Source: Raillietiella orientalis (Eukaryota). From it: DNA of 64,000 bases. Numbering within the stretch: the first letter of the stretch is position 1; every line of letters starts with the position of its first letter. The translations under genes were made by a program, and so were the position numbers. The DNA is taken from NCBI GenBank assembly GCA_036172245.1, contig JAYWIR010000049.1:62001-126000 (forward strand), given 5' to 3'. Under the pieces are notes generated by a model. That model was not told the DNA's origin. It ran no database searches and saw only the letters and a list, made by a program, of their open reading frames with translations. Shown in pieces: positions 631 through 35,200 of the stretch.

Positions 631-843
631 TCACACGGATTACGCCGGGGCGTTTATTGTAAAATAAACTTCTACAAAGAAGTACGGTGGCTGGACCATT
701 GCTCCAGCCACGCACAAAGAAACAGAGCCGGCCGGGTCACCGGTTCGCGGACCGGTACGGTCCACCACGGCAGCAGGGGGAAGGGGGAAAAACAAAAAAC
801 AAAACAAAAAAGAAAAGAAAAGTTGGGAGGGTAAGGGAAGGGA

Positions 844-3800
844 TCACAGTTGCTGGTGGGGCCGTCGCATCCTTTGCAGAATGCCGGCAAGCTCCTTCTG
901 TATTCCTGGATCCAGGTGGTGACATCGGGACGCCCTCCTCAGGAACTGGGAGGCTGGCTGGATAGCACCCTGGTCGCGTTGTGCTCTCGTAGCCTTGCTC
1001 CAAGCAGTGACAATCCCGCGTAGGCAGCACAAAGCTGCTAACGAGGCCGCTGGCCGGAGGGCGTTGGCAAAAAGAGGGCTTTCAGTGCGCCCTGGGGTTG
1101 TCGCAGGGGATTCCGATGGCCGCGGCAAAGCGAAACCAAAGGGGCCGAAGTGCAACACAATCCACTAGCAGGTGGGGGAGGGACTACCGTTCCCCACACC
1201 TGACGCAATTAGGGTCCACCGCACCCCAGGTACAGTGGTGTCGGCGGGCGTTGCAGGAAAGTCCCCAGTGCTGCAACAGGAGAGCCGACTCCTGCCATTT
1301 TAAATGGAGGGAGGAAGTGTTCATGAGCACCGGGGGCCACTTCAGATGTTCAATGGGAACATCGAGCGGCGCGCCCCAGCGCAGAAGTCCATTGGGAGGC
1401 GTACTCGGGGTCGCAGCATCTGTTAACTGGCCCGTCTTCCACTCTCCTATCTTCTTCTCCTTTCCGGAGATTGTTATTGTAACCACCCACTTCGCCGCAA
1501 CATCGCTGTTCCGATCTTCCATCAGGGAGGGCAGCGCAGCAGCGAGGGGGGTTCTTCCTGCCCACGCTCTCTTCTTTGGATCCTCCAGGATCTCGCAGAG
1601 CGTGCAACTTCTATAACCCCCAAACAGGAACCTTCGTTCCTGTTGGGAGCGTTGCATGCCGAACTGTCCCCACGTTCGGACGGTTTCCTGCAACCAGGCA
1701 CTACCGTTCAACGGGCGACAGGTGAGCAATCCTGGGTTTTTCCGATACAGCGCAGCCACCCTCCGTAGCTGGAGTCCGCATCGGTTGACGCGGCGACGGA
1801 GTGCAAGAAACGACGTCAGTCCCGTCTTGCCGGTGGTTTGCTGGAGAAGGAGACGTGCAGGGACGCACCAACAGGTGCACCACAACTCTAGAACGAGTGC
1901 CGACAAGCATAACTGGAGCTGAAGCTCCAGCCGCTATAGCGACAGGAGGCCCAGACTACCATCCCGACGAGGAGCTCACAAGTCCTTTAAGCGGACTCGG
2001 GCCCTCCCGTTGCACCAAAGAGCGATACGGAGGAGGTCCTTTGTCCGCTCTTCAATCCTCTCTGTGGGGGGTCAAACAAAAAGCAAGGGGCGGAGGAGAA
2101 GAGCCGCGAACGTGTTCCAAACCGCGGCCCGTTCGGGCATGAAAAACCTGCCGCCACGGAACGGGCTGATCACCGTCTCTACTTTTTGAAGGCAGCCGGA
2201 CCACGCTTCCGCGGGGGAGTAGTCCCCCAACGGCACACCAAGGTACTTGAAGTACCTCACCGTGGGGATCCCCAAATGGACCCAGTCCTGCTGCCCTGCC
2301 CACGCCGCACCAACTGGCATCACGGACGACTTCGCCCTGTTCACCGTAACTCCCGTTTCCCGATGCAGCAGGTCGAAGGACTCCTCGACCGCCGCAGCCG
2401 GGGTATACATAGGGAGCAGCAGCGGAAGGTCGTACGCGTATGCTGAAACGGCCGGCGTACCGGCACAGTCGTGCGGCAAGTGCGCTAGTGTTCCCCTGTA
2501 CGCTCTCAGTACCAACTCAAAGTAAGTACTGAAGAGCAAGGGGCTCAGGCTGTCTCCCTGCCGGATCCCACGCCGCACCGGCACGCCGTGCACGGTCTGC
2601 CCGCTGAAAGTAACCTTGATGAGCGCGTCGCGCCAGCAGGAGCGCAGATAGGCCACTAATGATGCCGCGAAGCCCAAGCGTCCCAGAAGCTCCAGAAGGA
2701 GATTCTGGTCGACGCAATCGAATGCTTTTCGCAAGTCGATTGCGACCGCAAGGGCTCCCTCCCCCACCCGAGCATGCGATCATTTGTCGGCGCACGCACC
2801 GGAATTCCGGCTGCCCCCCATGCTCCTTTCATGTTGGAGCTCTAGCGAGGTGGAAGCGTGGAACAGGTTCGCCTCCATGCTTCGCCCGGGAACAGCACAT
2901 GTCTGTTCCGGGCTGATGAGGATGTTGGCAACCCGTCCCAGACGCTCTGCTTAAACCTTAGCCAGCAGCTTTACGTCAGCATTCACTATTGTGATGGGAC
3001 GCCAGTTGTTCATGCTCCTCAGATCCTTTCCCTTAGGGAGGAGCCGCACCTTTGCCGAAAGAAACAAGGCGGAAACGTCACCTGTTTCGCGTATCAGCAA
3101 GGTGAGTTGCTGTACCAGGGGGGTAAGCTCAGCCGCGAAAGTTTGATAAAACTCCGCGGGCAGGCCGTCCTCCACTGGAGCCTTTCGCCTCTTGAGCTTT
3201 CCGATGGCCGAGAGGATCTCGTCCATCGTGAAAGGCTTGTCGAGGGTCTTTCTCTGCTCCTCCCCGATCGCGAAAGCGCCTTCCAGAAGCAGGAGTCGTA
3301 AGATGTTCCTCTCCGAAGGTGCCCTGGCATACAGGGAGGAGTAGTAACTCCGCAGCAGGCCGCAGATTTGGGCAGGTGCCGAGAGCTCCTGGCCCTGATC
3401 GTCCATTAAGCCGGCCGATCCGGAATGCGAGGCTTGCCTCTCGGCTCCCGCTTTCTATTCCGCCAGCCTGCGGATGTCGGGAATCCTGGCGTAACGGCGA
3501 GCCTGCAGGTAGGCTCGTTCGTTACGGACTCCGGTCCCAAAACTCGTAGGTAGGCGGTGCAGAGGGAAATGGACGCAGAACTCCTGGACCGACCGCTTGA
3601 AGCGGTCCCAATCTTGGAGTGTCCGCAGCCTGGAGCTCCGTATGAACGTGCGGAGATGTTCCGCCGCGTCAGGGAGCTTCAGTCATTCCCCTGGGAGACG
3701 CCACGCTGACGGGGGGGGTCCCTGTCGCGCGGATGGATCTCGAGGACAAGCGGGCGATGGTCGGACAGCTCGCACGGTAACTTGCCGCGATAGCCCACGC

Positions 3801-4420
3801 GAGGGCACAGGTGCTCGTCAAGAAACACGTGGTCAATGCTGTCTTCCATCCCCGGTGCACTGGCCAACAAATTACAGGTGTGCACCGCCATGCACACCTC
3901 GTTGACCAGGTCACGCTCGGGATTGTGCCCATCTGGTTTCAGGCGAACGTTGAAATCGCCTGCAACCAGATGGGCATTCCGCACGCCTGCTTCGGTGAGC
4001 CAGTCTCGCTAAGGGCAAGAAAAACTCTTTCCTCGCTTTCCTGTTCATCAGGTCCTTGCCGCTCGGTGCGTACACGTTCGTGACGATCAGATCGATCGAG
4101 TCGGACCACCTGAGAGTCAGCTGGCCTACACGATCGTGATCGTCGAACCGTACGCCGTGAGCCGCGGTCTCGACGGCTGGCCGAAGCAGCTAGGCGACAC
4201 CGCAACTTTTCGTACTCCCACACATGTACCATAGCCGTCCTCCGGAGATCCGTTCGATCTCTAGCGCTTGTTCTGCAGAGATCACGTGGATCTCCTGCAG
4301 CAGCGCAAGGTCGTAGGAATCCAGAAGGGCGGATATGTCTCGTCTTCTGCCGGCGTCTGTCATGCCGTTCACGTTTCAAACGGCGATGCGGAGACGACGG
4401 CGGGAGGAGATTCCCGGCAT
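844..4420 (-). pseudogene. A1 ORF2, APE endonuclease-RT-CCHC (broken)
   Basis: Fragments carry NVNG/LLQEIH, GDFN, SDH, KAPxEDGLP, NWRPIT, DLRKAFD, QGDSLSP, YAYD, KYLG and CVRCGER..H..C. Confidence 0.9.
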
Positions 4421-4434
4421 TACTGCTGGGAAGA

Positions 4435-6087
4435 TTAAGGTGTCGGGGAGCCCTCCTCTTGCGAGGCGGGCAAGATGTCCATGGGGGTTTCGGCCTTCTC
4501 AGGCACCTGAGGCACCTGTTCGGCCTCCACCCCCTCCATCTCCTCCGTGTCCGTGCGTGGGAGTCTCTCGGGCGACGGGTGCCGAGAGTTTCCCACGCTC
4601 ATGGCACCCTCGCTTGCGGAAGCCATCTCTTCCCCTTCGCTGGGGAGACGAGCTTCCTTGGCTTTGTAGACTTACGTCCAGCCTTCTTGCAAGGTGCCGT
4701 GGAAACGGAGTCTGCGTTTCCGGCCGCCACCTCGGGGTCGGAAGTGTGGGACTCCTGAGGGGAGGCCGGACTCCTTACGGCCTTCTTGCCAGCCATGCAG
4801 AGTTCTGGCTGCACCGAAGCTACCAGCTCCTCTGAGGCTCGCACGAAGGCTACGTCATCGATGGTGGTGTCGATGACGGACGCCGCCGCCGGCTCGCTCC
4901 CCTCGCTGTTGACTGTGTCAACAGAGGGGAGGTCGTCGGAAGCAGTCAGGTCTTTCCGGCAGCGTTCGGCAACATCGTGAACGCGTTCGACACTGACCCT
5001 GCACTCTTTAATAATCGCGCTACCCTGCTCTTTCTGCTTCTGTTGCTAGGCGATTTTCTTTTCCATCCTCCTCTTCTTCTTTGATTCTATGGCCGTTGCC
5101 ACTTGCCACCCAGTCTCCTGACCGGCTTCCTCAACTTTTTGGCGTTGGCCGCCGGGGTCTCGGGTGCGGCCTGGGTCTTGGGCGCGGGTGGCACAGCCTG
5201 CGCGGCAGCTTTCGCCGCCAGCCTTTTCTGCAGAAACCGGGCGCGTTTTTTAAGGTTTCTCTTGGAACCCACCCGCACTGCGACTTTTGGGCACACCTTC
5301 CTCGTGTGGCCCATTGTGCCGCATACTTGGCACTGCACATTGGGACACCTCTTTTTGAGGTGGCCCGACGTATTGCAGAAGCCACAGTATTTCGGCTTCC
5401 CCACATACCAGAGGTCGACGGTTTCGCCTTCGACCACCAGTTTGTGGGAAGAGTGGAGCCCTCCCGAACGGTCACGCGGGTAGCAGTGAGGCCGTGTTGG
5501 AGCCACGTGTAGTCCTCGAAAGGACTTACTTTCGTCCACTGCGCGTGGACCGTTCCTAACTGTTCCAAAGCGGCGCGACCCTGTTCTTCGCGCATTCGCG
5601 CGGTGACGCCTAACAGGTGGAACACCATGCTGCAGTCCGCCGTAGTGGGGAGGAGCCTGCGCGTCCCCATCACAAAGGGGGTTTTAAGCAGTCGTTGGGC
5701 CAGCTCTGCATGTTTGCAGATGACCTCAACGTACTGACCCTTGCTGCGGATGGTCATAGCGCTGAGCTCCTCCTCTTTCACATCGAGAGCGCGTATGCCC
5801 TTCGAGAAGGCACGCGCGCTCTCTAAAGAATATAAATTGCCTACCTTGTAGAACATAGAGGGGTTGTACCCCTCCTCTACATAGGCCCACAATTCCGCTG
5901 CGGCTGCAGGCGATGACGCCGTCTAAACGGCGCTCCACGCCCGCACTGCAGCATGAACCGATTTTGTAAAGGCGGATGCCTCCACATCCACCGCCACCGG
6001 GGGCGACGTTGCCACCGCCCCCTGGCTCTTCATCGTTTCTGAGGGCGGCGTTACCCCCTGGCCATCCCTGGTGGTCGCGTCAGGCAT
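4435..6087 (-). pseudogene. A1 ORF1, gag-like nucleic-acid-binding protein (frameshifted, stops)
   Basis: CGFCNTSGHLKKRC and CQVCGTMGHTRKVC knuckles (ORF 5087-5539); colinear with 29752-31407. Confidence 0.85.
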
Positions 6088-6197
6088 CGCTGCCTGATCG
6101 ACCACCGAGCCACACGACGCTTGCACTGGGATAGACTTTCTGGCACGAGGAGAACCGAGAAAACACGTCCACCCTGTAGCACGCAAGGCGGTCGATT

Positions 6198-8264
6198 GCG
6201 TAAACCAAAAGCTGCTTTTGGAGCTTATGGAACGCCTAGGGTTCCCTGCACATCTCCTGATGTATTTGCGCGCTTGCTGGCGCCACGCGCTAATCTGCAG
6301 CACTTTCAGCGGCTGCCGGGTGTATGGTATTCCCGTGCGTAGGGCATCCGACAGGGCGACAGCTTGAGCCCGTTGCTCTTTAGCATCTTCGTTAAGTTGG
6401 TGCTGAGAGCATACAGGGTGAACTTGGCCCCCTTGCCGAGCTCGTGCCCCGGCACGCCCGCCGCAGCAGCGTACGCCGACGATCTTCTGCTCTTGTTGCC
6501 AATGTCATCCTCGGCAAAGGCGGTCGGAGACTTCTTCGATCTGCGCAGCCGCGGGACCGGACTGCAGGTTAACAGCGCGAAGTCGTCGGTTGTGCCAATA
6601 GGTGCGGCGTGGGCAGGGCAGCAGGACTGGGTCAGTCTGGAGATCCCCACGGAGAGGTGCTTCAAGTACCTTGGTGTGCCGTTGGGGGACTACTCCCCTG
6701 CGGAAGCGTGGTCGAGCCGCCTCCAAAAAGTCGAGACGGCGATCGGCCCGTTCCTGGAAGGCAAGTTTCACTTGCCGGAACGGGCCGCGGTTTGGAACGC
6801 CTTCGCGGCCCCTATTTTCCTCCTCTTGCTTTTTGTTTGCCCCGCCACCATGGAATCGACGAAGAAGACAAAGGACCTTTTCCGTATCACCCTTTGGGGC
6901 AAGAGGAGGCCCCGAGTACCTCTGAAGGACTTGTGCGCTTCGCGTCGGGACGGCGGTCTTTACCTCCTGACGCTGGAGCGCGTGGAGAAGCAGCTGCAGT
7001 GGCGAACCCTCGCCATCGCAGCGAAGATGTGGAGCACCCCTTGGTGCACTCCGGCCCGCCTCCTGGCCAGCCGTGTGTCCCGATGCGATGGACTCGCATC
7101 TTTTCTTGTGAGCCGTTGCCGGAAGATGCAAAGATGCGGCCTACTGATCGGGCGCATGGCAACATTTGCCAAGGAGAACAGCTGGATGGTTTGCTGCCCC
7201 GCCAACTCCCCCGCCTAGCTGGAGGAGAATATTGGAACGTGTTCAGCGGTTAAGCAGAGGAGCCACGAAACGTGGAATCGTCTCCGATGCAGCCCCTACG
7301 CCCGCTGCACGCTGCGGAATCTCCTGGAGAGTCCAGCATGATGCACGTGGGCAGAGACGATTTGCCTTGCTACGGCGCTGCCCTTCCTGAGAAGGGCACT
7401 TCACAGCTCTAGGACGCCAAGGTGGCTAGTATGCTGCTGCATCGAGGGAAGCGAGAAGTTGATCAGCGGCTGGACAACAGGAGAACTGGTTGACGCCACG
7501 AACCCGAGCGTCCAGCCGCGAGGATTATTAAGATGGGGCGAGCTGCTCGCCATCCCCAGGGATGAGCTGAAGTGGCTCCCGGTAATGAAGGAATCCAGGA
7601 TCCTGCCCCTCAAGTGGCAAAAGTCGGCGTTGCTTTTGTTGCACTGGGGTCTACCCTGCAACGCGCGCCGCTTCCACTGGGCGAGGGGAGCTGTGGATCC
7701 TGCGTGTGGCAGGTGCGGGGAGCGGGAGTCGCTTCCCCACCTTATTGTGGATTGTGCTGCCCTCTGACCCCTTTGGGAACGGTTCGGGATCACCCTCGGT
7801 CTCCCTACAGGCAGCACCCCCAGGTACGTTCTTCGGCCCCTCTTCGTGGAGGACGCACTACAGCCCGCCGCAGCCATCGCAGCCTTGTGCTGCGTCCGTG
7901 GCAACGTGGCGGCATGGAGCGACGCCAACAACGAAGGAGTAGGTCCACAGGCGAGGTATGTCATCTTGTATGCCCAGCGCTTCATGCGAAGAGCTGCCGG
8001 ATGGCCCCAACTGGGGAATATGCAGACAGACCTCGAGGGCTTCGTAGGACGGATGGGCCCTTCTCATAGCGACCAGTGATCCCTTCCCTGCCCTCCAGCT
8101 TCTTTTTGTTTGTTTGTTTTTATTTTTCTTTTTGTCTTATCCCCATCCTCCTTCGCTGTCGAGGAGTGCCACGCCGGGCTGCGTTCCGGTGTCCGGACAG
8201 GTCCTGCGTCTACGGCCGTGGTGGGGCCTCGTACCACGCATGTAGGGTTTACGTACGTAGGTGA
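6198..8264 (+). mobile_element. 3' half of a lineage-B element (B1): RT C-half, CCHC, 3' UTR. The first ~230 nt are G-type and the terminal hairpin is deleted.
   Basis: ORF 6364-7218 has YADD and KYLG; stop at TGATCCCTT 8077; UTR matches 24152-24360 and 41239-41445. Confidence 0.85.
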
Positions 8265-11004
8265 CAACGCCGAATCCCCGGGGCAGACGTTGTACAGGGA
8301 ACTGTTCGCAGAACTCCCGGCCCGAGTCCTTAAATAGGACCCAATGCGCGAGACTCTGGAGGGTGACGGCTCGCAGGAATTCGCGAAGATGTTCTTCCGC
8401 TCCTGAAAGGCGCGTGCAGTCCCCTGGCATACGCCAATCCCTGGATGGCGGTCCCTTGTCGCGCGGGCGCATCTCGAATAATAACCGGGAATGGTCCGAC
8501 AGCGTCGATTTTAAGTGTCCCTCGTTTTCCGACCCGTGTGCACAGGTCTTCGTCGAGGAAGACGTCGTCCACGCTGCTGACCATCCCGCTTATTTCTGTC
8601 AACAAGTTGCGCGCCCGCATGGCGTCACACAACTCGTTGATCGCCTTCCCCTGTGCTCCGGGCTGAGCTGAGAGCAGACGGACGTTGAAATCCCCTGCTA
8701 TCAGATGCGCCTTTCGCACGTCCGAGTCCACCAGCCATTCGCGCTTCAAGGTTTCCAGTAACGCGTTGCGCTGCTGGTATCCCTGTTTACCGCTAGGAGC
8801 TTACACATTGGTGACGATGAGGTCGATCGAATCGGACCATCTGAGAATCAGTTGGCCGATCCGTCCGTCGTCTCCAAAGCGCACGCCCTTCACGGCCGCG
8901 TTAATGGCTGGCTTTAGGAAGAACGCGACCCCCCAAGTGTTGCGGGCGCCGCATCGCCAGTACAACCGCCCTCCCGCGATCCTTTCGATCTCCTGGGCGT
9001 CTTTTGCGGTGATCACATGGATCTCCTGCAAAAGCACCAGGTCGAAATCTCGCACGGTGGCGGCTGTATCTCGTCTGTTTCCGTCGTCGCGCAGCCCGTT
9101 AACATTCCAACTGGCCGCGTGGATCCGACGGCGACAGGCGAGTCCAGGTGTTATTCCTGGGAACCTGGCGGTGGTGCTCCCGCCACCTTTTGGGGCGGGT
9201 CGCTGGACGGGGTTGGCGTCTTGCCGACCAACTCCCCATCCTTCTTACGTGCCGACGTCTCCGGCTGCCCGTGCGAAGGGAGTGTTGCTCGTACCTGTTG
9301 GCCCACATCCATTGGTGTGGGTGGTTCAGGTTCGGCGGTTTCAGAGGGCATTGCTGACCCCTGGTTACCCTCCTCCATTGGAGTCTCCTCCTCGTCGGCT
9401 TCCGCACGTGGGTGATGCCCGAATTGGGCTCCCACGCTGCCATCCACTGGTTCCTCCACCATTAAATCCCCCTCGCGCGGAGGCGGATTGCACCTTCGGG
9501 GTTTCTGGGATTTTCGCCCCGCTTTCCTTGGTGGTGCTTCCGCAGAAGAGGATGCACTTCCGGCCTCCAGGTCCGACTCACCTGCGGGGGCCACTTTAGC
9601 CGCTGCCGGCCTACGCAACCCCTTTCGCGAAGGGTTCTCGCGTTCGGCAAGCGTTGCCGCAAGCTCATCGGCGGCCTTCTCGAAGGCTGCGTCCTTGGTT
9701 TCGGCGATTTGGTCGTCCGGCTGACCCTCTTCGCAAGCAGGGGGTGGGTTTTCGCGCGCATTCGTCGCGGCGGGAAAATCGATCGAAGCCGTATCGCCTC
9801 CGGTGGTGTCGACGGGAACGTCAATGGGCTCCAGCGTAACCGTGCATTCTCGGAGAGTTTTTACGCGCTACACGGATTGAGCTTTGGTTCCGGCCGCCGC
9901 CTTCTCTCCTTTCTTCGGGACATGCTTGTCTTTTTTCTCTTTTTTGGCTTTGACTAGCTGCCAGCCCTGTTCTCCCTCTGCGGTTTCGGGAAGATTTTTC
10001 TCCGATGCCGCGCTTGGAGCTTGGGTTATTGGCAGCTTTTCTCGGCCAGTTTCACGCTTTTCCAATTTTTCTTTCCCCGCGCGTTTCCCTTGCGCCTTTT
10101 TGGCGGCCGAGCAAATTGGGGTGGGGCGTTTAGGGCACACGCGACGGACGTGTCCCTTCTCCCTGCACTAGTAGCATACGATGTTTGGGCACCACTTTCG
10201 GATGTGTCCGACCGCATCGCAGTAGCCGCAATATCGTGGCTTGCCCGCATACCAGAGGTCTACCGCTTCTCCCGCGACCTCAAGTTTGTGGGGTAGCTTC
10301 GCTTCGTCTTTTGGGGTTACGCGTGCCGCGGCGAGGCCCCCGAAGTGGCGTCCGTAGCCCTCAAAGATTGTGGGCTTCGGCCACAGCGCGTGTACGTCCC
10401 CGTACTTACTTAATTCTGCTTTTACGGCAGTGCGCGTCATGCGCTTGGATATTCCTGTCAAGTGGACAACTACCGAGTGGTCCATTGACACCGGGAAGAT
10501 CTTACGGCCGTCCATGATCAGCGGGGTATTTATAAGGCGATCGGCTAGGCTGATGCTCTTGCACACCAGCTCAACCCGCTGCGCCCCGCTAAGCACGCAC
10601 AGACCTTCCAGATCTTCCTCACGGACATTAGCATATTGAAGTGCTCTGCTAAAAGAGCGCGCCGTGTTTCCTTCAAACAAAGGGCCTACCTTGTATATAA
10701 ACGATAACTTGTATTCAGAGGCCCGATAGGCGGCTTCCTCGGCCATGGCCTCCGCACAGGGGGCGGCGACCATTTCACTCCAAGTCTTCGCCGGCTGCGA
10801 AGACGTTCCAAGGACTATAGCCCCCATAGCTGTAGGTCTTGTGGAAGGACTTGCCTCCCCACAACTACATCCATCGCGGTGTCCTCTGGCACGGCTGCCA
10901 TAGGACACCGACGACTCACACTTTACGCCTGACTACACTAAAAACTCCGGTTGCTTCCCAGACAAGCGCTGGCGGAGCGACCAAAAAACACGTCCACTCG
11001 CCAA
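8265..11004 (-). mobile_element. 5' half of a B-like element (B2): ORF1 (~10901-9151) plus EN, cut at RLPRGFG
   Basis: GGACGTG at 10989-10995; CGYCDAVGHIRKWC knuckle; WNVNG, LLQEIH, GDFN; ends at REFCEQFPVQRLPRGFG. Confidence 0.85.
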
Positions 11005-11018
11005 GGGATTTGGCGATG

Positions 11019-14000
11019 CCACCCGGATACGCCAAGACGTTTATTAAAAACATTTCGACAGTCAATACAGAACGTGGTACAAGGCCCCACTGACGGCCAC
11101 GCAATACCGGAACTGCCGGGACACCGGGACGCAGCCCGGTGTGGCTGTTCTCGGCCGTGGAGAGGGATGGGGGAGAAAACAAAAATAAAATAAAAGAGAA
11201 AAACAAACCACAAACAAAAAAGTTTGGAGGGCCGGAAAGGGATCACAGAAAACTGCAGGGAGCGCCCATCCTTTCCAGGATGCCTTCTAGTTCCATTTTC
11301 AGTTTTCCTAGATGGGGCCATCGGGTAGCTCTCTGCAAGAAGCGAGAAGCATACTCGATGACGTCTCTCACGATGCAGTCTTCATCTTCGGCATCACTCC
11401 AGGCCGCCACGATACCACGAATGCAGCAAAGTGCTGCCAGGGCTGCGGCTGGACTGAGAGCGTCCCGCACGAAGACAAGACTGAAGATACATTCAACGTT
11501 GCCACCATCCGGTATCCGGAGGGCCGTTTTAAGACGATCCCAAAGAATCTGGACGGCAGAGCATTCAACTAAGAAGTGGGGGAGCGACTCCCGCTCCCCA
11601 CACCTGGCACACGCAGGATTTACACTTCCCTGCGTCCAGTGGAAGCGGCGCGCGTTGCAGGGTAGACCCCAATGCAGCCACAGAAGCGCCGATTCTTGCC
11701 AATTCAGGGGAAGAATCCTGGATCCAAGTAGAACCGGTAGCCACTTCAGGTCATCCAATCGAATGCCGACCAGCTCGCCCCATCTTCTTAATCCACGCGT
11801 CTGGAGACTAGGGGTCGTTGCATCTGTCAACTCTCCCATGGTCCAGCCGCTCATCATCTTCTCTCTGCCTGCGATACGGCAGCACACTTGCCACCTTGCC
11901 TTCCGGCTTCTGTGAAGCGCCCTTTGGAGGAAGGGCATCGCCGTAACAAGGGGTGTGCCTTCCGCCCACGTGCAACTCGGTGGAAATTCGAGAATTTCAC
12001 GGAGAGTTCGGCGGGCGTAAAAGCCGACTTGCAGGCAGTTCATCCGGTCTTCGCACCTCTGGTTCTGCTTGGCCCAGGTGCCAGCAGTCTCTTCCAGCCC
12101 AGCGGAGGAGTTGACGAGGCCACAAACCATCCAGTCGTTCTCCTTTGCCAGGGTTGCCATGCGGCCGAACAGTAGACCGCATCATCAAATCTTCCGGCCA
12201 GGGCACAGAAGAAACGATGCAAGTCCTTCGCAGCGGGACACACGCCTGGGCAGGAGGCGGGCCGGAATGCACCAAGCGGTGCTCCACATCATCGCTGCGA
12301 TGGCGAGGGTCCGCCATCGCAGCTGGGTTTCTACGCATTCCAGCGTCAGGATGCTGAGACCGCCGTCGCACGCGGAGCGCACAAGTCCTTCAAAGGGAGT
12401 CGGGGCCTTTCCTTGCCCCAAAGAGGTATGCGGAGGAGATTCTTCGTCCGCTTTTTTGATTCCACGGGGGCGGGGCATTCAAAAAGCAAGGGGCGGAGGA
12501 TAGGGGCCGCGAAGGCGTTCCAACCCGCGGCCCGTTCTGGCAAGTGAAACTTGCCTTCCAGGAACGGGCCGATCGCCGTCTCGACTTTTTGGAGGCAGCT
12601 GGACCACGCTTCCGCAGGGGAGAAGTCCCCCAACGGCACACCAAGGTACTTGATGCACCTCACCATGTTGATCCCCAGACGAACCCAGTCCTGCTGCCCT
12701 GCCCACGCCTCACCAACTGGCATCACGGACGACTTCGCCCTGTTCACCGTAAGTCCGGTTCTCCGATGCAGGTGGTCGAAGAACTCCTCGACCGCCGCAG
12801 CCAAGGTGGTCATAGGGAGCAGCAGCAGTAGGTCGTCCGCGTATGCTGAAACGGCCGGCGAACCGGAACAGTCGTGCAACAGGTGCGCCAGAGTTCCCCT
12901 GTACGCTCTCAGTACCAACTCAAAGTAGGTACTGAAGAACAAGGGGCTCAGGTTGTCTCCCTGCCGAAACATACGCCGCACCGGCACGCCGTGCACGGTC
13001 TGCCCGCTGAAAGTAACGTGGATGAGCGCGTTGCGCCAGCAGGAGCGCAGATAGGTTACTAATGAGGCCGAGGAGCCTAAGCGTTCCAGAAGCTTCAGAA
13101 AAAGATTCTGGTCGACGCAATCGAATGCTTTCCGCAAGTCGATTGCGACCGCAAGGGCTCCCTCACCCACCAGACCATCAAACCCCTTGCCGGCGCACGC
13201 ACCGAAATTCCTGCTGCGCACCAAACTCCTTTCATGTTGGGTCTCTAGCCAGGTGGAAGCGTGGAACGCGTTCGCCTCCTTTCTTCGCCCGGGAACAGCA
13301 CATGTCTGTTTCGGGCTGATGAAGATGTTGGCAACCCGTCTTAGACGCTCTGCCCAAACCGTTGGTAGCAACTTGGCGTCCGCATTCACTATTGCGATGA
13401 GACGCCGGTTGTTCATGCTCCTCAGATCTTTTCCCTTAGGGAGGAGCCGCACCTTTGCCGAACGAAACGAGGCGGGAACGTCACCTGTTTCGCGTATCAG
13501 CAAGGTGAGTTGCTGTGCCAAGGGGGTAAGCTCAGCCGCGAAAGGTTCATAAAGCTTTGCGGGCAGGCCGTCCTCCCCTGGAGCCTTGCGCCTCTTGAGC
13601 TTTCCGATGGCCGAGAGGAACTCGTCTATCTAGAAAGTCTCGACGAGGGTATATCTCTGCTCCTCACCGATCGCTGGAGCGTCTTCCGGAAGCAGGAGTC
13701 GTGAGTCCTTCCTCTCCGGAGGTGCCCTGGCATACAGGGAGGAGTAGTAACTCCGCAGCAGGCCGCGGATTTGGGCAGGTGCCGACTGCTCCTGGCCCTG
13801 ATCGTCCAGCACACTGGCCGATCCGGACTGCCAGACTTGCCTCTCGCCTTCCGCTCTGTATTCCGTCAGCCTGCGGATGTCGGGTGTCCTAACGTAACGT
13901 CGAGCCTGCAGATAGGCTCGTTTGTTACGTACGCCGTCACCAAATCCCGCAGGTAGGCGGTGCAGAGGGAGCTGGTCGCAGAACTTCTGGACCGACCGCT

Positions 14001-16243
14001 TGAAGGGGTCCCAATCCTGGAATGTCCGCAGCATGAAGCTCCGCATGAACGTGCGGAGATGTTCCGCAGCGTCCGGAAGCTTCAGTCAGTGCCCTGGCAA
14101 ACGCCACTCTGACGGGGGGGGCCTCTGTCGCGCGGATGGACTCCGAGGACCAGCGGGCGATGGTCGGACAGCTCGCAGGGTAACTTGCCGCGCATGCCCA
14201 CGCGAGGGCACAGGTGCTTGTCAAGAAACACGTGGTAAATGCTGTCTTCCATCCCAGGTGCACTTGCCAACAGATTACAGGTGTGCACCGCCATGCGCAC
14301 CTCGTTGACCAGGTGACGCTCGGGATTCTGCCCATCTGGTTTCAGGCGAACGTCGAAATCGCCTGCAAGGTCGTAGGATTTTAGATGGGCGGCCATGTCT
14401 CGTCTCCTGCCGAAGGCTGTCATGCCGTTCACGTTTCAAACGGCGATGCGCAGACGACGGCGGGAAAAGATTCCCGGCATTACTGCTGGGAAGATTAAGG
14501 TTTGGGGGAGCCCGCCTCTTGCGAGGCGGACAGGATGTCCATTGAGGTTTCGGCCTTCTCAGGCACCTGAGGCACCTTCTCGACCTCCACCCCCTCCATC
14601 CCCTCCGTGTCCGTGCGTGAGATTGTCTCGAGCGACGGATCCCGAGAGTTTCCCACGCTCATGGCACCCTCGCTTGAGGAAGCCATCTCTTCCCCTTCGA
14701 CGGGTGGACGAGCTTCCTTGGCTTTGTGGACTTACGTCGAGGCTTCTTGCGCGGCGCCGTGGATACGGAAGCTGCTCTTCCGGCTTCCACCTCTGGGTAG
14801 AAAGTGGGGGACTCCTGAGGGGAGGCCGGACGCCTTACAGCCTTCTTACCAGCCTTGGAGGGTTCTGGCTGCAACGAGGCTGCCAGCTCCTCCGCGGCTC
14901 TCGCGAAGGCTACGTCATCGATGGTGGTGTCCATGACGCACGCGGCCGCCGGCTCGCTCCTTTCGCTGTTGACAAAATCAGCAGAGGTGAGGTCGTCGGT
15001 AGCGACGAGTTCATTCTGGCAGCGGTCGGGAATACGGTCGACGACAACGCTGCATTCTTTAATTTGCTCGCTTGACTGCTGTTTTTTCTGGCGGTACGCG
15101 AGCTTTTTCTCCATCCTCCTCTGCTTATTTGATTTTTTGGCCGTAGCCACCTGCCACCCAGGCTCCTGGCTAGTTCCCTCGACTTGTTCGGCGTTGTTCG
15201 CCGGGGTCTTGGGTGCGGCTTGGGCCCTGGGCGCGGGCGGCACAGCTTTCGCGGCAGCTTTCGCCGCCAGCCTTTTCTGCAGAAGCCAGGAGCGTTTTTT
15301 AAGGTTTCTCTAGGAAAACACCCGCACTGCTGCTTTAGGGCACACTTCCTTCGTGTGACTGATTGTGCCGAATACTTGGCACTGCACTTTGGGACACCTC
15401 TTTTCGAGGTGGCCCGACGTATTGCAGAAGCCACAGTATTTCGGCTTCCCCACATACCGGAGGTCGACGGTTTCGCCTTCGACCTCCAGTTACTGGGGAA
15501 CAGTGGAGCCCTCCCGAACGGTCACGCGCGCAGCCGTGAGGCCGTGTTGCATTCCTCGAAAGGACTAACTTTCGTCCACTGCGCATGGACCGTTCCGTAT
15601 TCCTCCAACGCGGCGCGAACCTGTCGCTTGCGCATCCGCGCGGTAACACCTAACAGGTGGACCACCATGCTGCGATCCTCCGTATTTGGAAGGAGTCTGC
15701 GCGTCCCCATCACCACGGGGGTTTTAAGCAGTCGCTAGGCCAGCTCTGCATGTTTGCAGATGACCTCAACGTACTGACCCCCGCTGCGCATGGTCATAGC
15801 GCTGAGCTCCTCCTCTTTCACATCGAGAGCGCGCATGCCCTTCGAGACGGCGCGCGCGCTCTTTAAAGAATATAAATTGCCTACCTTGTAGAACAATGAG
15901 GGGTTGTACCCCTCCTCTACATAGGCTGACAATTACGATGCGGCTGCAGGCGTTGGCGCCGACACAACGGCGCTCCACGCCCGCGCTGCAGCGGGGACCG
16001 ATTCTGTGGGGGCGGATGCCCCCACCTCCATCGCCTCTTGGGACGACGTTTCCGCCGCCCCCTGGCTCTCCATCGCCTCTGAGGGCGGCATTGCCGCTGC
16101 CTCCTGGCCATCCCTGGTGGTCGCGTCAGGCATTGCTGCCTGATAGACCACCGAACCACACGATGCTAGCACTAGGTAAAACTTCCTGGCACGAGGAGCA
16201 CCGAGAAAGCACATCCACCCTGGAGCACGCAAGGCGGTCGACT
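11019..16243 (-). mobile_element. Chimeric element: lineage-A 5' part (ORF1 16133-14495, EN, RT) fused to a B-type 3' part (stop 11243)
   Basis: ORF 12346-13521 is A-like up to KYLG and then has B-type IGPFLEGKFHLPE. The 5' junction is A-type and the 3' junction B-type. There is an EN internal deletion at ~14365. Confidence 0.8.
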
Positions 16244-18331
16244 ACGTCGACCAGGATCTCCTTCTGGAGCTCCTGTAACGCATGGGGTTCCCGTCCGTGC
16301 TCCGGTCTTACCTGCGCTCCTGCTGGCTCAATGCGTATATCAATATTGGTTTCAGCGTCCGGCACGTGTACGGCGTGCCAGTGCGCCGCGGCATCCGGCA
16401 GGGTGACACCCTGAGTCCCTTGCTCTTCAGCATCTACTTCGAGTTGGTGCTGAGGGCATACAGGGTAACTCTGGCAACTCTGCCGAGCTCGTGTGACGGC
16501 ATGCCTGCCGGGTCGGCCTATGCAGACGATCTTCTGCTGCTGCTTCCAGGGTCCAACCCGGCGAGTGCGCTCGAGGACTTCTTCGAGTTGTTGCGCCGCG
16601 GGACGGGCCTGGAGGTGAGCAGGTCGGAGTCGTCCATGGTCTTTGTCTGTTCGGCGAGGGCTGGAGGGTAGGACTGGATCCGCTTGGATATCCCCACGAG
16701 CAGGTGCTTCAAGTGCCTTGGCGTTCCGTGGAGGGACTTCTGCGCAGCAGAAGCCTGGTCCGACCATCTCCAAAAGGCAGCTTGGGCGATCGGTCGGTTC
16801 CAAGAGAGCAAGTTCTACTTGCAGGTACAAGCCGCGGTGTGGAACGCGTTTGCGGCCTTCCTCCTTCGCCCCTTACTTTTTGTGTGTCGCCCCTCATTTT
16901 GTTCGGAAAAGAGCAGCGGGCCTTCTGAGGACAGTCCTTTGGGGCAAAGGGAGGTCCCGTGTGAGGCTCAAAGACTTGTGCGCTCCACGTAAGGACGGTG
17001 GTCTCGTGGAACTTACGCTGGAGCGCATGGAACTGCAACTGCAATTCAGGATTCTCGCCCTCGCGGCCGAATCGTAAGACACGCCTTGGTGCGTTCCAGC
17101 ACGCCTCTTGGCCCAACGAGCCGTCGGATCCGGCGGACTTTTGTCGTTTCTGTCTGCGCGCGTCTGCAGAAGAGCACACTGTGGCTCTATGCTGCGACGC
17201 ATCTTCGTTGCGGTTCGGGAGAAAGCCTGGATCTCCTGCCTCCCAGGGAACTACTCTGCCTTGTTGCACGAGTCAGTCTCCAGCTGGGAAAACATCCACG
17301 TCCCGGCGGGCACAAGGGACACTTGCCTAAAAAGGCACGCCCACTGGACGCTGAAGAAGATCGTGCAGTCCAACGACAAGCTTCTGTGGGCCTTGAGAAC
17401 CCCCTTCGCCCCAGTGCTGCCTTTCCTTGTGGATGCCAGGGACAGTAGCGAGCAGGGGAAATGGACCGTGTCCTGCACCATAGGCGGCAGGACACAATCG
17501 ATAAAGGCGTGGACATCTCGGCAGCTAGCGGATGCTGCTACTCCGAGTGTCCCGCTCAACGGAATTCGACCCTGGGTAGAGCTACTCGGACTTTCTCCGG
17601 AGGAGATGTAGTGGCCCCCAGCGTCCTGGAACAGTGGATTCCTACCCCTGAAATGGCAGGATGTGGCGTTGCTTGTGGTCCTCTGGGGATTACCATTCAA
17701 AGCACGCCTGCACCACACCACCCGGGGGCTGTGGATCCTAATTGTGACCGGTGTGGGGAAACAGAAACATTTCCCCACCTTCTCCTGGAGTGCAGAGTCG
17801 TCCGCCCTTTGTGGGATCGTTTCGCGGCGATCCTGGACTTGCGCGGATGCTGTCTAAAGGACTTTTTAAGGCGCCTCTTCTGTAGTGAAGCCTCGTCCCC
17901 GCCCGCTAGTGTAGCAGTCCTCTGCTGCATCAGAGGAATAGTGGCGGCTTCGAAAGCCACCAGAAGGAGGCGTCAGTTAATCGGCAACGCCTTACACTGG
18001 ACTCCCCTTTTCGCGCGCAATGTCTGCAAGTGGCGCCACTAAGGCGCTGAAAGGACTTAGCTTGTGCGGATCCTGAACAGGATCTAGAGGACCTGTCCAC
18101 GCGCACCGTGATCCCTTCACCGCCCTCCCACCCTACAACATTTGTTCCCCTCCCCCCACATTTGAGCTTTTTGTTTTTATTTATTTCGCATCCCCGCGCA
18201 TCGGAAGGACCTCTCCGGCATGGAGCCGGTAACCAGCAAGCTGTTTTGGAGTGGTGAACCTTCGAGTTCGCCACGCGACATTTCAAGGAATTTTTATTTC
18301 AAAGAAATAAATGCCCCGGCACATCCGGGTG
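16244..18331 (+). mobile_element. 3' half of a lineage-D element (D1), RT to 3' terminus
   Basis: QGDTLSP, YADD, CDRCGETETFPHLLLEC; terminus AATAAATGCCCCGGCACATCCGGGTG at 18306-18331. Confidence 0.85.
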
Positions 18332-27491: not shown

Positions 27492-29641
27492 TCTCCCGGT
27501 CACGCCGGGGCGTTTATTAATAAAAATAAACTGGTCAGGGACAATGTCTTTAACCAACAGTACGACAGGGAACATAGAAAAATTACCGCCACGCAGGCCT
27601 GGTAAACAAATCGCTCGCAGCGTGGGAGGAATGAGGGGAAACAAACAAAAATCAAAAACTGGAGTAAAGGGTAACAGGTTTTAGGATAGGCTTTGTACTC
27701 ACGGGGATTTATACGATGAGCACCTGAAATCTTCAGGAGCCTATGGGGACGCGGGTGTAAAAAGAAAATACAAAATTAGTTTATGGAGGGTAGGGCAATG
27801 ATCACCGTGTTGGCCGCTGCTCAGCGTGTGTAAACCGGAGGTGTATTGCGGCGAGATTCCTTTTTGTCTCCTTGTCAAATGAGACCATCTAGCGGATGCT
27901 CCCATGTAGAAGGATGCTTTTCTGATTACCTCTTGGTGCTATCCGTTGATTACCAACGACTGGCAGACGGAAACTATCGCGCGTATGCAACCGATGGTTG
28001 CAATCCTTGCGCAAAGAGACAGCCCGCTCGGCGTGAAGAATCGTCGCAGAAGTCTCTTGCGGTGTCCACGGGATGCATTAGTGCAGTAGCCAGCCTACGC
28101 CACAGTTTTTGTAGGACACCGCAGTCCAGAACCGAACGCAGTTCGCAGACGCAAGTCCCCCGGAGTCACGATGCCAACGCTCGTTTCACTGAAAACCCCA
28201 GCAAACGAAAAGCAACACGGCTTGTTTTCAAGCAAGGGGGAGCAGCGAACTGTCAATACACTGTGGAGGGACTACAAGTTCTTCGGGGGTGACAGCAAGT
28301 TCTTCTGCCCACCGGACGAGTCCCTTTGCAGTAACAAGATAAGTGGCGGCGTCCGCCAACTCACTCGTGTTCTAGGCGCCAAGGAGTTTGGTTTTTCCCA
28401 CTATCGTGCAAGGAAACTTCCACTTCGCCGGTTGGTAATTGTCCTTTCTTGCCCTGAGTGCAGACAGCGCTGCGGCAAGAGGCGTGGCAGCCAGGGTAGA
28501 AAACTTCACCTCGTCCTGCAATACTTCTTCCAAGGATCGTAAAAAAAATTGGCGCAAGGGGCGAAGATCTTCAGGTCGTATTCCTTGGAACGTCGCCCAG
28601 GATTCAACAGACTCCTGCCGCCAAGCTTCAAAGTTCATTGGGCGGCAGGACATCCACGAGTGAGCTTCCAGAAGTGCGGTCAACTACCGCAATGGAATCC
28701 CGAAACCCTGCTTCCTGTATTGAGTACACGGCAAAAGCGAGAGAAATCCTCCGCTGCCGGCGCATCTCCGCAGGAGAATGCGGCCTGGCACACACAGGGG
28801 GGATGTCCATAGCTGGACACACAGCGCCAGCAGTCGGAACTGCACCTGCAGTCCGATTCGCTCCATTGTCAGGATACCCATACCAGCATCCCGACGCGGA
28901 GCTAACAAATCTTTGAGGCGGATTCTGGATCTCGCCGGACCCCGGAAAACGTTCCTGTGCAGGCGATTAGCCAGCTGTCTTGCCGCATAGGGGGGGTCCA
29001 TAACAAAATACAGGGGATGGAGGAGGGGGGCCACAAAGGTGTTGCAAATAGTCTCCCGTTCCTGAGGATTAAACTTGCCGTTAATTAACGGAGTGATGGC
29101 CAACTTTGCTTTCTGAAGACAGTTTGCCCAAGCATTGGCTCCGTCAACAGCGCCCAACGGAACGCCAAGGTACTAAAAGTACCCGCCCGTGGGGATCCCC
29201 AGGCGGATCCAGTCGGACTGCCCCTCCCACGACGCACCCACAAGAGCAAACACGCTCTTCTCTCTGTTCAGGCTCACGCCCGCCCCCCGACGAATCAGGT
29301 CGAAGAAATCCTCGAAACTGGACGCCGGGATGGACATGGGGAGCAGAAGAAGCAGGTCATCAGCTTAGGCGGCAATGGCAGGCGTACCAGGGGAGTAGCA
29401 TGGCAAGTGAGACAGAATCAGCCTGCACGCTCTCAGCTCCAACTTAAAGAAGATGCTATAGAGCAACGGGCTTAAGCTCTCGCCCTGTCGGATGCCCTAC
29501 GCACGGGAATACCGTACACGCGGCAGCCGCTGAAAGTGATGCAGGTTAGCGAGTGGCGCCAGCACTCGCGCAAATACAGCAGGAGATGCGCCGGGAACCC
29601 TAGGCGTTCCATAAGCTCCAAAAGCAGCTTCTGGTTTACGC
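27492..29641 (-). mobile_element. Lineage-G element, 3' part (RT C-half to terminus)
   Basis: DCVNQKLLLELMERLGFP.., RIRLKDLLAPRRD; stop ~27802; terminus at 27492-27518. Confidence 0.82.
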
Positions 29642-29675
29642 AGTCGACCGCCTTGCGTGCTACAGGTTGGACGTG
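29640..29675 (+). promoter_or_regulatory. Putative internal Pol II promoter: Inr-like GCAGTC plus DPE-like GGACGTG at +28
   Basis: A at 29642 lies 27 nt before GGACG at 29669. GGACGTG (once GGATGTG) is found at all 9 clear 5' ends. Confidence 0.5.
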
Positions 29676-29751
29676 TTTTCTCGGTGCTCCTCGTGCCAGG
29701 AAGCCTCCCCCAGTGCAAGCGTCGTGCGGTTCGGTGGTCGATCAGGCAGCG

Positions 29752-31407: not shown

Positions 31408-31421
31408 TCCTCCCAGCAGTA

Positions 31422-34986: not shown

Positions 34987-35200
34987 TCCCTTCCCTTACC
35001 CTCCCAACTTTTCTTTTCTTTTTTGGTTTGTTTTTTGTTTTTCCCTTTTCCCCCTGCTGCCGTGGTGGACCGTTCACGTCTGCGAACCGGTGACCCGGCA
35101 GGCTCTGTGTTTCTTCGTGCGTGGCTGGAGCAATGGTCCAGCCACCGCACGTCTTTGTAAAAGTTATTTTGCAATAAACGTCCCAGCGAAATCCGGGTGA

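What the first reader, a model, noticed from the sequence alone, without database searches (positions are those of the whole stretch)
16205..16250. The 5' end of lineage A also carries a target mimic (RKAVD instead of RKAFD)
Seen: all three A 5' junctions read GCACGCAAGGCGGTCGA on the host strand (6179-6195, 16225-16241, 29643-29660 rc). They have GTC (Val) where nearly every intact site has TTC (Phe), in both D-type and G-type hosts. Inference: the apparent target-site duplication is partly element-encoded, so A RNA has target homology at both ends. This recalls R2 elements using co-transcribed 28S sequence for 5' joining.
Basis: partly seen in the sequence, partly recalled or inferred. Interest (0 to 1): 0.72.

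Follow-up and report, generated by a model that had tools for sequence, protein, structure and literature searches.

The report
Retrotransposon carries inherited target-like 5' flank
Three copies of one LINE-type retrotransposon, each inserted backwards into another LINE's reverse-transcriptase gene, share the same slightly wrong copy of the target at their 5' junction, so this piece seems to travel with the element instead of being copied from each new host.

Summary
GCACGCAAGGCGGTCGA occurs exactly three times in the window (0.03 expected), each time at the 5' junction of a full-length 'A' element. A is an APE+RT, L1-like LINE lying antisense in the RKAFD-coding site of another LINE's RT. 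None of the 13 other copies of this site in the window has GTC.

The block sits where a 14-15 bp target-site duplication (TSD) would sit, but it does not behave like one:
- In copies 1 and 3 it differs from the copy at the 3' junction at the same two bases (CGC/GTC against CAC/TTC).
- It is identical in hosts of three lineages.
- In copy 1, about 200 nt of copy-3-type host flank came along with A into a G-type host. The join is in register, at a conserved patch (46 of 57 against 5 of 234 informative sites, p=9e-40).

So the junction block is inherited with A. The most likely route is a co-transcribed 5' flank of variable length (16 to about 200 nt) that completes integration by homology, as proposed for R2. 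A fixed 14-nt 'mimic' is not shown.

The limits are three copies, two of which share flank, no RNA data and no copies from outside the window. DNA-level gene conversion remains a serious rival. This is a new variant of a known kind, of moderate interest.

The parts
16225..16241 (+). Junction block GCACGCAAGGCGGTCGA at the 5' end of A copy 2, on the host strand. The last 14 nt (CGCAAGGCGGTCGA) are target-like and read RKAVD.
6179..6195 (+). The same block at the 5' end of A copy 1.
29644..29660 (-). The same block at the 5' end of A copy 3 (host strand is minus).
629..6195 (-). A copy 1, full length (about 5.57 kb), antisense to its host. APE lies at 4465-3650 and RT at 3658-1685 by tblastn. 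The reading frames are broken.
29644..35202 (+). A copy 3, full length, antisense to a D-related host. It is 88.6% identical to copy 1 over 6238 aligned columns, flanks included.
12339..16241 (-). A copy 2, the A-like part. Below about 12339 it continues as a G-type 3' part, so the element is chimeric. Its own 3' junction with the host of 16242 onward is not in the expected place.
614..628 (+). The host's own copy of the site at the 3' junction of A copy 1: CACAAGGCGTTCGAT. It differs from the 5' block at 2 of 15 bases.
35203..35217 (-). The host's own copy of the site at the 3' junction of A copy 3: CACAAGGCGTTCGAT. It differs from the 5' block at 3 of 15 bases.
6196..6397 (+). Host flank next to the A copy 1 5' end that is foreign to its host. 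It is 91-93% identical to the host of copy 3 and 61-68% to G-type. It carries the same 1-nt deletion (frameshift) as copy 3's flank.
29442..29643 (-). The corresponding flank of A copy 3, part of its D-related host. The end coordinate is approximate.
6394..6401 (+). Crossover interval in the host of copy 1, from copy-3-type to G-type. It lies at the left edge of a patch conserved in all lineages (about RT residue 377).
6398..8306 (+). The G-type remainder of the host of copy 1, about 87-95% identical to the copies at 26250-24110 and 43336-41269.
381..613 (+). The G-type upstream part of the host of copy 1 (RT residues about 222-308). It is G-type at 79 of 84 informative sites.
16242..17278 (+). 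The 3' part of the host of copy 2 (RT residues about 313-659). It belongs to a third lineage, 66-69% identical to the hosts of copies 1 and 3 in the first 200 nt.

Best explanation
A is an APE-type, L1-like LINE that inserts antisense into the RKAFD-coding site of other LINE lineages' RT genes. The target-like block at its 5' junction is passed on with the element. It is not copied from each new host.

Proposed mechanism, with shown and inferred steps marked:
1. Inferred: A is transcribed from a start upstream of its own 5' UTR, inside the flanking antisense host RT sequence. The RNA therefore carries a leader homologous to the target, from about 16 nt to 200 nt or more.
2. Shown by anatomy: the 3' junction lies at ...TTCGAT^, next to A's AATAAA...GTGAAAA end, as target-primed reverse transcription on the host sense strand would leave it.
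3. Inferred: the 3' end of the cDNA, which is the complement of the leader, anneals in register to the homologous host sequence downstream of the nick. This completes the 5' junction. The new copy keeps the donor's version of the site (CGC...GTC), plus as much donor flank as lies before the crossover. That was about 16 nt in copy 2 and about 200 nt in copy 1.

The GTC (Val) base is thus a heritable marker of the lineage's ancestral flank. As speculation only: it would put a G/A mismatch five bases from the priming end, which might make the 5' site copy a poorer target for re-insertion.
For: Evidence for inheritance with the element:
1. The block is identical in three copies and found nowhere else. 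0 of 13 other site copies has GTC.
2. In copies 1 and 3 the 5' block and the host's surviving 3'-side site copy differ at the same two bases (CGC against CAC, GTC against TTC), although the hosts are of different lineages.
3. The host of copy 2 belongs to a third lineage and diverges from the others within about 2-5 nt after the block.
4. The host of copy 1 is a mosaic. Of 291 informative sites, the 57 left of the breakpoint (window 6394-6401) split 46 copy-3-type, 6 G-type and 5 neither. The 234 right of it split 5, 217 and 12. Fisher p=9e-40. A shared 1-nt deletion lies in the co-mobilised part.
5. On the other side the host of copy 1 is G-type at 79 of 84 informative sites, up to within 24 nt of A's 3' end. 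The foreign DNA is therefore A plus flank on the 5' side only. This is what retrotransposition with a 5' leader predicts.
6. The crossover lies in register in a patch conserved in all lineages.

Support from the related X lineage: it carries CTTGGCG at its 5' terminus although its host flank there is different (...GAATCCC|TTGGCGAG, 3 of 3 X 5' ends). This is the sequence of the target of the related E lineage (CAACTTGGCGT|GCGGACGTG). So 5' target-derived bases are element-borne in at least one relative.

Precedent: R2 RNAs that keep up to 36 nt of upstream 28S sequence give uniform 5' junctions, postulated to arise by annealing of the cDNA to the target (PMC3774820, abstract).
Against: - Only three copies exist, and all are old and broken (11-20% diverged).
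- Copies 1 and 3 share flank, so there are effectively two independent junction types.
- There are no RNA, 5' RACE or CAGE data, so nothing shows that the block or the flank is transcribed.
- No other copies could be found outside the window.
- The array contains chimeric elements: copy 2 is A/G. It also contains duplications at about 90% identity. DNA-level exchange is therefore common here and could mimic the pattern.
- No ribozyme or other known processing signal was found at the 5' end.
- The 3' junction of copy 2 is not available for comparison.
- A cDNA/target heteroduplex should sometimes resolve to the host version (TTC). No such copy is seen, but n=3.
Confidence: 0.55

Rival explanations
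1. DNA-level copying. One ancestral A insertion acquired the two mutations in its 5' TSD copy. Then A plus adjacent flank spread to other host elements by gene conversion or segmental duplication within this recombining array, for example by repair of a break at an empty RKAFD site using an A-occupied element as template. No RNA-borne mimic is needed.
For: - The window holds duplications at about 90% identity and chimeric elements.
- Copies 1 and 3 share the A body at 88.6% and the flank at 91-93%, with a shared frameshift.
- The crossover in copy 1 lies in a conserved patch, as homologous recombination would also give.
Against: - On the 3' side of A, the foreign tract in copy 1 would have to end within 9-24 nt of the element's end. 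In copy 2, it would have to end within about 5 nt of the block. Retrotransposition gives such boundaries automatically; conversion tracts would hit them only by coincidence.
- Homology available on the 3' side for strand invasion is only about 24 nt between these host lineages.
Confidence: 0.25
2. A fixed element terminus. The 14-17 nt block is simply the first bases of A's 5' UTR, transcribed from an internal promoter that starts exactly there. The 200-nt shared flank of copies 1 and 3 is then a separate, later event.
For: - The block is invariant in 3 of 3 copies (P about 0.02).
- Copy 2 shares only the block.
- Relatives E and X have homologous 5' UTR starts with target-like bases at the same distance from the GGACGTGTTTTT box.
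- The block can pair over 9 bp with the 5' strand of a conserved 5' UTR hairpin. This is my own reading of the sequence, not a tool prediction.
Against: - It does not explain why copy 1 carries 200 nt of copy-3-type flank contiguous with the block, ending in register.
- The MFE folds do not consistently pair the block with the hairpin.
Confidence: 0.12
3. An ordinary target-site duplication. The three hosts natively encoded KAVD with CGC at this site, or each TSD copy mutated independently, and the identity is coincidence.
For: - The block lies exactly where a 14-15 bp TSD would lie.
- Other lineages in the window show 11-13 nt target overlaps at their junctions.
- Two or three differences in 15 nt are within what 11% divergence could give by chance in a single copy.
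Against: - 0 of 13 other site copies has GTC.
- The same hosts read TTC and CAC in their surviving 3'-side copy.
- Identical double changes in three copies in three host lineages are not credible as independent events.
Confidence: 0.05

Closest known systems
R2 elements whose 5' ribozyme cleaves upstream in 28S rRNA (Eickbush, Burke & Eickbush 2013, PMC3774820; abstract read)
   Same: The element is site-specific. The RNA 5' end is proposed to carry upstream target sequence. [quoted passage not shown] Here the junctions are uniform in 3 of 3 copies.
   Different: - R2 has a restriction-like endonuclease, a single ORF and an HDV-like ribozyme. A has an APE endonuclease, and no ribozyme was detected.
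- The target is another LINE's RT gene in antisense, not rDNA.
- Because the targets here are diverged paralogues, the carried sequence is visibly different from the local target. In R2 the two are identical, so inheritance cannot be seen.
L1 5' transduction and homology- or microhomology-mediated 5' end joining (recalled from the L1 literature; no paper read for this here)
   Same: Upstream flank of a source copy is carried to the new locus, and the 5' junction forms at a stretch of homology.
   Different: In L1 the transduced flank is unrelated to the new target and lies inside a new TSD. Here the flank is homologous to the target. The join is in register, so the host RT sequence continues without duplication or loss.
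Zepp and Zepp-like L1 LINEs of green algae (statement in PMC8226300, passages read; PMC3446292, passages read)
   Same: L1-type LINEs that target existing copies and build nested clusters. Zepp is about 61% G+C in Coccomyxa; this window is 54-64% in 2-kb windows.
   Different: - No relationship to Zepp was tested. The closest database protein is 61% identical and unnamed, and the next hits are about 25-33% identical L1-like proteins of animals, plants and fungi.
- The passages read give no specific target motif, orientation rule or junction inheritance.
Target read-through at the 3' end of site-specific APE LINEs such as R1Bm, and completion of the R2Bm 5' junction by homologous recombination (recalled; not read here)
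   Same: Target-homologous sequence on the template RNA or cDNA guides precise junctions.
   Different: Those cases concern rDNA targets and experimental constructs. No natural, heritable variant copy of the target has been traced there, as far as I recall.

Membership tests
APE-type (L1-like) non-LTR retrotransposon | Apurinic-like endonuclease domain upstream of the RT in ORF2 | tested here: met
   Pfam PF03372 hits in the window ORFs 51936-52757(+) and 60455-61276(-). By tblastn, the APE of A copy 1 lies at 4465-3650(-) and that of copy 3 at 31377-32165(+).
APE-type (L1-like) non-LTR retrotransposon | Reverse transcriptase domain (RVT_1) | tested here: met
   PF00078 hits in A copy 1 (2075-2779-), in copy 2 (12349-13629-) and in the hosts. 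tblastn covers RT residues 1-657 in A copy 1.
APE-type (L1-like) non-LTR retrotransposon | Placement in the L1 clade by phylogeny of APE+RT | not tested
   There are only similarity hints. Distant hits carry PF00078+PF03372+PF13966. One zf-RVT hit (23 bits) is below the Pfam cut-off of 27.5.
Ordinary target-site duplication | The two flanking copies are the same host sequence, identical at insertion and differing afterwards only by independent mutations | tested here: not met
   The 5' and 3' copies differ at 2 of 15 bases (copy 1) and 3 of 15 (copy 3). Two of these changes are the same in both, and the 5' version is identical in a third host.
R2-like 5' processing (ribozyme-cleaved co-transcript) | HDV-like or other self-cleaving ribozyme at the element's 5' end | tested here: inconclusive
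   Rfam gave 0 matches at gathering score over the whole window. At E<=10 in 5700-6400 there were only three chance-level miRNA/lncRNA matches. Covariance models can miss HDV-like folds, and no dedicated descriptor search was run.
R2-like 5' processing (ribozyme-cleaved co-transcript) | Uniform 5' junctions carrying target sequence | tested here: met
   3 of 3 full-length A junctions are identical over 17 nt.
R2 clade | Restriction-like endonuclease C-terminal to the RT, single ORF, 28S rDNA target | tested here: not met
   The endonuclease is APE, N-terminal to the RT. In the related E lineage a separate ORF1 with a CCHC knuckle stands upstream of ORF2. The target is an RT gene.
L1-type 5' transduction | Source-locus upstream flank present at the new locus, contiguous with the element's 5' end | tested here: met
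   About 200 nt of copy-3-type flank lie next to A copy 1 inside a G-type host. However, no separate TSD lies outside it, and a DNA-level origin is not excluded.
Zepp / Zepp-like | Nested clusters made by insertion into existing copies | tested here: met
   The window is a nest of LINE copies in which several lie inside the ORF2 of others.
Zepp / Zepp-like | Phylogenetic grouping with Zepp/ZeppL ORF2 | not testable with these tools
   No Zepp sequence was at hand, and no algal protein was among the 120 hits listed.

The most novel reading that the evidence does not exclude
The window shows a guild of related L1-like LINE lineages, each specific for a different conserved motif of the others' ORF2:
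- A at RKAFD.
- E at about RT residue 222.
- G/X at RGFG.
- B at the APE/RT linker.
- The D-type element in the APE.
- At least one lineage at GDFN in sense orientation.

In this reading their RNAs carry heritable target-derived sequence at the 5' end, and perhaps at the 3' end too. Integration is then completed by homology-directed, in-register joining. This would be a natural 'homology-armed' retrotransposon. The diverged paralogous targets record every event as a mosaic flank.
Probability: 0.35. Interest if true: 0.75.

Novelty: new variant of a known kind. Interest (0 to 1): 0.5.

Why it matters
How the 5' end of a LINE is joined to the chromosome is the least understood step of target-primed reverse transcription. 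In rDNA-specific elements such as R2, carried target sequence is identical to the local target, so its inheritance cannot be seen.

Here the targets are diverged paralogues, namely other LINEs' RT genes. Donor-derived and host-derived bases can therefore be told apart. Each insertion leaves a readable crossover point: about 16 nt in one copy and about 200 nt in another.

If this holds genome-wide, the system would give:
- a natural record of homology-guided 5' joining by an APE-type LINE;
- a way to measure leader lengths and crossover preferences;
- a parallel to engineered R2 templates with homology arms.

It also bears on how nested LINE arrays grow and homogenise. Such arrays are candidate centromeric repeats in some algae.

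Tried and rejected
Searches for more copies or outside context, all without useful result:
- No whole genome is held for this window.
- Earlier scan notes returned nothing, by place or by sequence.
- The sequencing-run search gave one run, X1, holding 0.08 of the words. Laying its contigs on 14400-17400 at 80% likeness gave 130 short pieces, 80-95% alike. No listed row concerned position 16237, and no piece bridged the junction informatively. I draw nothing from it.
- Exact scans for a 23-nt invariant A 5' UTR block found 0 hits in metagenome contigs and 0 in genome contigs.
- Scans for the family's 3' end pattern also found 0 hits.
- The protein search with the 661-aa RT ORF gave one unnamed relative at 61% identity on a 2.9-kb metagenome contig. 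All other hits were at most about 33% identical. The source genome is evidently not in that collection, so searching for junction-spanning ORFs was not tried.

RNA structure:
- Rfam gave nothing.
- Single-sequence folds of the first 146 nt of A gave z-scores of only -1.8 to -2.1 and no consistent pairing of the block.
- An alifold on the hairpin used badly chosen coordinates for two sequences and recovered only the 4-bp inner stem. The outer-stem compensatory change is my own reading.

Other points considered:
- An open frame on the A strand runs from the host flank through the block in all three copies. Long antisense ORFs are common in this G+C-rich array, so I treated it as not significant.
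- I could not resolve the 5' junctions of the two 5'-truncated A copies (43598 and 47389). They abut host pieces of the wrong lineage and position.

Literature:
- A search for LINEs inserting antisense into other LINEs' RT found 0 papers. That search covered only the held open-access library and used one set of phrases.
- The search gave no paper that I used.
- Higashiyama et al. 1997 on Zepp is not held.
- The passages returned for my search terms in PMC11005252 and PMC9940879 give no target-site detail.
Full report
WHAT THE WINDOW IS. The 64 kb are 54-64% G+C throughout. A self-comparison shows the window to be almost wholly repeats of one kind. Six-frame ORFs hit Pfam RVT_1 (PF00078) and Exo_endo_phos (PF03372). 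One is a weak zf-RVT hit, and one ORF1-like frame has a CCHC knuckle. tblastn with the best APE and RT frames (60455-61276-, 58469-60451-) maps about 20 ORF2 pieces on both strands. These are APE-type, L1-like non-LTR retrotransposons of several lineages, 65-90% alike. In the 5.8-billion-protein collection the RT frame has one unnamed relative at 61% identity. All other hits are at most about 33% identical and are L1-like proteins of animals, plants and fungi. The organism is not known to me, and no genome is held.

THE OBSERVATION. GCACGCAAGGCGGTCGA is at 6179-6195(+), 16225-16241(+) and 29644-29660(-). There are no other matches with up to 2 mismatches, against 0.03 expected. On that strand each reads ARKAVD and continues into the C-terminal two-thirds of an RT. 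Upstream of the block the three copies share sequence. Downstream, the hosts differ. The nine uninterrupted copies of the site in the window read TTC in 8 cases and TTA in 1. The four site copies next to A 3' ends read TTC. So GTC occurs in 0 of 13.

ANATOMY. A lies antisense to its host.
- Copy 1 is 629-6195(-), copy 3 is 29644-35202(+), and both are about 5.57 kb.
- Read on the host strand, copy 1 runs: ...GATCTCCACAAGGCGTTCGAT | TTTCACACGG... (reverse complement of A's 3' end ...AATAAACGCCCCGGCGTAATCCGTGTGAAAA) ... A ... CCTGTAGCA CGCAAGGCGGTCGA | TTGCGTAAACC...
- Copy 3 has the same layout.
- The block therefore sits exactly where the 5'-side copy of a 14-15 bp target-site duplication would sit. 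Other lineages in the window show comparable 11-13 nt target overlaps.
- Two further A-like copies, 5'-truncated, have the same 3' junction (46712/46713 and 49293/49294).
- Copy 2 is A-like from 16241 down to about 12339 and then continues as a G-type 3' part. Its 3' junction cannot be paired with its 5' junction.

IS IT A PLAIN TSD? No.
- In copies 1 and 3 the host's own site survives at the 3' junction as CACAAGGCGTTCGAT. The 5' block is CGCAAGGCGGTCGA(T/C). The same two differences occur in both copies, although the upstream host parts are of different lineages: G-type for copy 1 and D-related for copy 3.
- Copy 2 has the identical block in a third host lineage, which is 66-69% identical to the other two hosts over the first 200 nt and diverges within a few bases of the block.
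- The 17 nt are invariant among the three, while 60 of the next 300 A columns vary (crude P about 0.02).

THE FLANK OF COPY 1 IS A MOSAIC. This is the most informative result.
- Downstream of the site, the host of copy 1 is 91-93% identical to the host of copy 3 and 61-68% to the two G-type copies for the first 200 nt. From there on it is about 87-95% G-type and 51-74% to the host of copy 3.
- There are 291 sites where the two G copies agree and differ from the host of copy 3. Of the 57 left of the best breakpoint (window 6394-6401), the host of copy 1 follows copy 3 at 46, G at 6 and neither at 5. Of the 234 right of it, it follows copy 3 at 5, G at 217 and neither at 12. Fisher p=9e-40.
- The co-inherited part includes a shared 1-nt deletion.
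- The switch is in register, at the left edge of a patch conserved in all lineages.
- Upstream of the site, the host of copy 1 is G-type at 79 of 84 informative sites. Only one copy-3-type base lies in the last 24 nt, at -9 (AAA to AAG).
- So the DNA that is foreign to this G-type host is A plus about 200 nt on A's 5' side, with an essentially exact boundary on A's 3' side.

RELATIVES IN THE WINDOW. Searching the conserved 5' box GGACGTGTTTTT and the 3' motif AATAAACG located further element ends.
- E-type 5' ends (about 380-, 55139+) abut antisense RT at about residue 222: host CAACTTGGCGTCCGCATT, junction CAACTTGGCGT|GCGGACGTG.
- X-type 5' ends (11016-, 41238-, 50121+; X is the 5' part of the G-type lineage) abut the antisense RGFG site...CGCCGAATCCC|TTGGCGAGTGGACGTG.
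- The X terminus CTTGGCGAGT-GGACGTG matches the E junction CTTGGCGTGC-GGACGTG at the same spacing, although the intact RGFG site continues differently (TCCC|CGGGG...). In X, bases that look like E's target are therefore element-borne. This is independent, if modest, support for the idea that 5' target-derived bases become heritable in this family.
- A's start, CGCCTTGCGTGC...GGACGTG, may be related, but two alignments are possible.

RNA FEATURES.
- Rfam gives nothing.
- Folds of the first 146 nt are only mildly better than shuffles.
- A hairpin just before the ORF1 ATG is conserved in A, E and X, with a two-sided change of the outer stem (GGTGTCC/GGACACC against GGTGGTCG/CGACCACC). This is my reading; the alifold was not informative.
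- I also note, without a test, that the block (UCGACCGCC) is complementary over 9 bp to the 5' strand of that hairpin in A. The Val-codon base makes a Watson-Crick pair there; the host-type base would not.

OUTSIDE DATA. No further copies could be obtained.

LITERATURE.
- For R2, cleavage up to 36 nt upstream in 28S leaves target sequence on the RNA. [quoted passage not shown] - I found no description of LINEs specific for the RT motif of other LINEs (0 papers, one phrase set, open-access library only).
- L1 5' transduction, R1Bm 3' read-through and R2Bm 5' homologous recombination are recalled, not read.

MECHANISM. My best reading (0.55) is that A RNAs start in the upstream flank, which is antisense host RT. 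They therefore carry a target-homologous leader. After priming on the host sense strand at ...TTCGAT^, the end of the cDNA anneals in register to the homologous target downstream of the nick, and the crossover point decides how much donor flank is kept. The anatomy, the non-TSD behaviour of the block and the mosaic are shown. Transcription of the flank, annealing and strand resolution are inferred.

RIVALS.
- The main rival (0.25) is DNA-level gene conversion in a recombining array. It needs tract ends to coincide with A's 3' end in copy 1 and with the block in copy 2.
- A plain TSD (0.05) is close to excluded within the window.

VERDICT. The junction block is inherited with the element, but it is better described as the proximal part of a co-mobilised flank of variable length than as a fixed mimic. 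The route, RNA or DNA, is unproven, and n is 3. I rate this a new variant of a known kind (R2-like homology-guided 5' joining, here in an APE-type LINE that targets other LINEs). Interest is 0.5.

Noticed in passing
window 380, 55139 (E); 11016, 41238, 50121 (X/G 5' ends); 8267, 24149 (G 3' ends); 52795 (B 3' end); 57437 (3' end of the D-type element 57437-61276): Each lineage seems to have its own target motif inside other lineages' ORF2, mostly in antisense:
- A at RKAFD.
- E at about RT residue 222 (..ADVKL..).
- G/X at RGFG (about RT residue 35).
- B at the APE/RT linker of X'.
- The D-type element inside E's APE (..AENAQEIERIAGGRL).

This guild of mutually targeting LINEs is more unusual than the single finding.
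   Followed up: partly
window 27490 and 38905: Two junctions at the APE GDFN motif are in sense orientation. At 38905 an E-like 5' end follows X'' sense ..ITGDFNRV. At 27490 an element 3' end is followed by sense ..FNLLL.. of a G-type copy. Antisense insertion is therefore not universal in this array.
   Followed up: partly
window 11005-11045 and 41225-41266: Head-to-tail pairs: a G-type 3' end, then 11-13 nt of antisense RGFG target (CGCCRAnTCCC), then an X 5' end. This is consistent with re-insertion into the site copy regenerated on the 5' side of an earlier insertion. That would be a simple way to build same-orientation arrays.
   Followed up: partly
window 614-628, 35203-35217, 46713-46727, 49294-49308: All four hosts next to A 3' ends read CA(C/T)AAGGC(G/A)TTCGAT. 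Their nearest uninterrupted relatives differ at one base each (G-type AAA against AAG at -9; D-type CGC against CAC at -13). Either A selects such sites or 9-13 nt on the 3' side also travel with A. There is only one informative base per host.
   Followed up: partly
window 12339 (A copy 2); 43598 and 47389 (5' ends of truncated A copies): Copy 2 is an A/G chimera. The identity profile suggests the switch begins about 400-500 nt after RKAFD, in a stretch where the lineages are about 90% alike; A-like BLAST homology ends at 12339. The truncated copy at 47389 starts at the same conserved patch (about RT residue 377) where the flank of copy 1 crosses over. The truncated copy at 43598 abuts a G-type element exactly at the E-type site. 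Neither 5' junction fits a simple nested insertion.
   Followed up: partly
window 6068-6104(-), 29735-29771(+), 16112-16148(-) and the equivalents in E (about 55219-55250) and X (about 50220-50251): A hairpin just upstream of the ORF1 ATG is conserved in A, E and X, with a two-sided change of the outer stem (GGTGTCC/GGACACC against GGTGGTCG/CGACCACC). Its function is unknown. In A its 5' strand is complementary to the junction block.
   Followed up: partly
window 16932-20697 and 60170-64000: An inverted duplication, 91% identical over 3.8 kb, runs from the RT C-terminal part of the copy-2 host lineage into a D-type APE and RT start, so it may span a junction between two elements, which would show that DNA-level segmental duplication also shapes the array.
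   Followed up: no
window 6343-6346 and 29496-29502: The host flanks of A copies 1 and 3 share a 1-nt deletion that shifts the RT frame (..VRRASDR..*). The flank that travelled with A was therefore already a dead gene, or it was copied after decay.
   Followed up: partly
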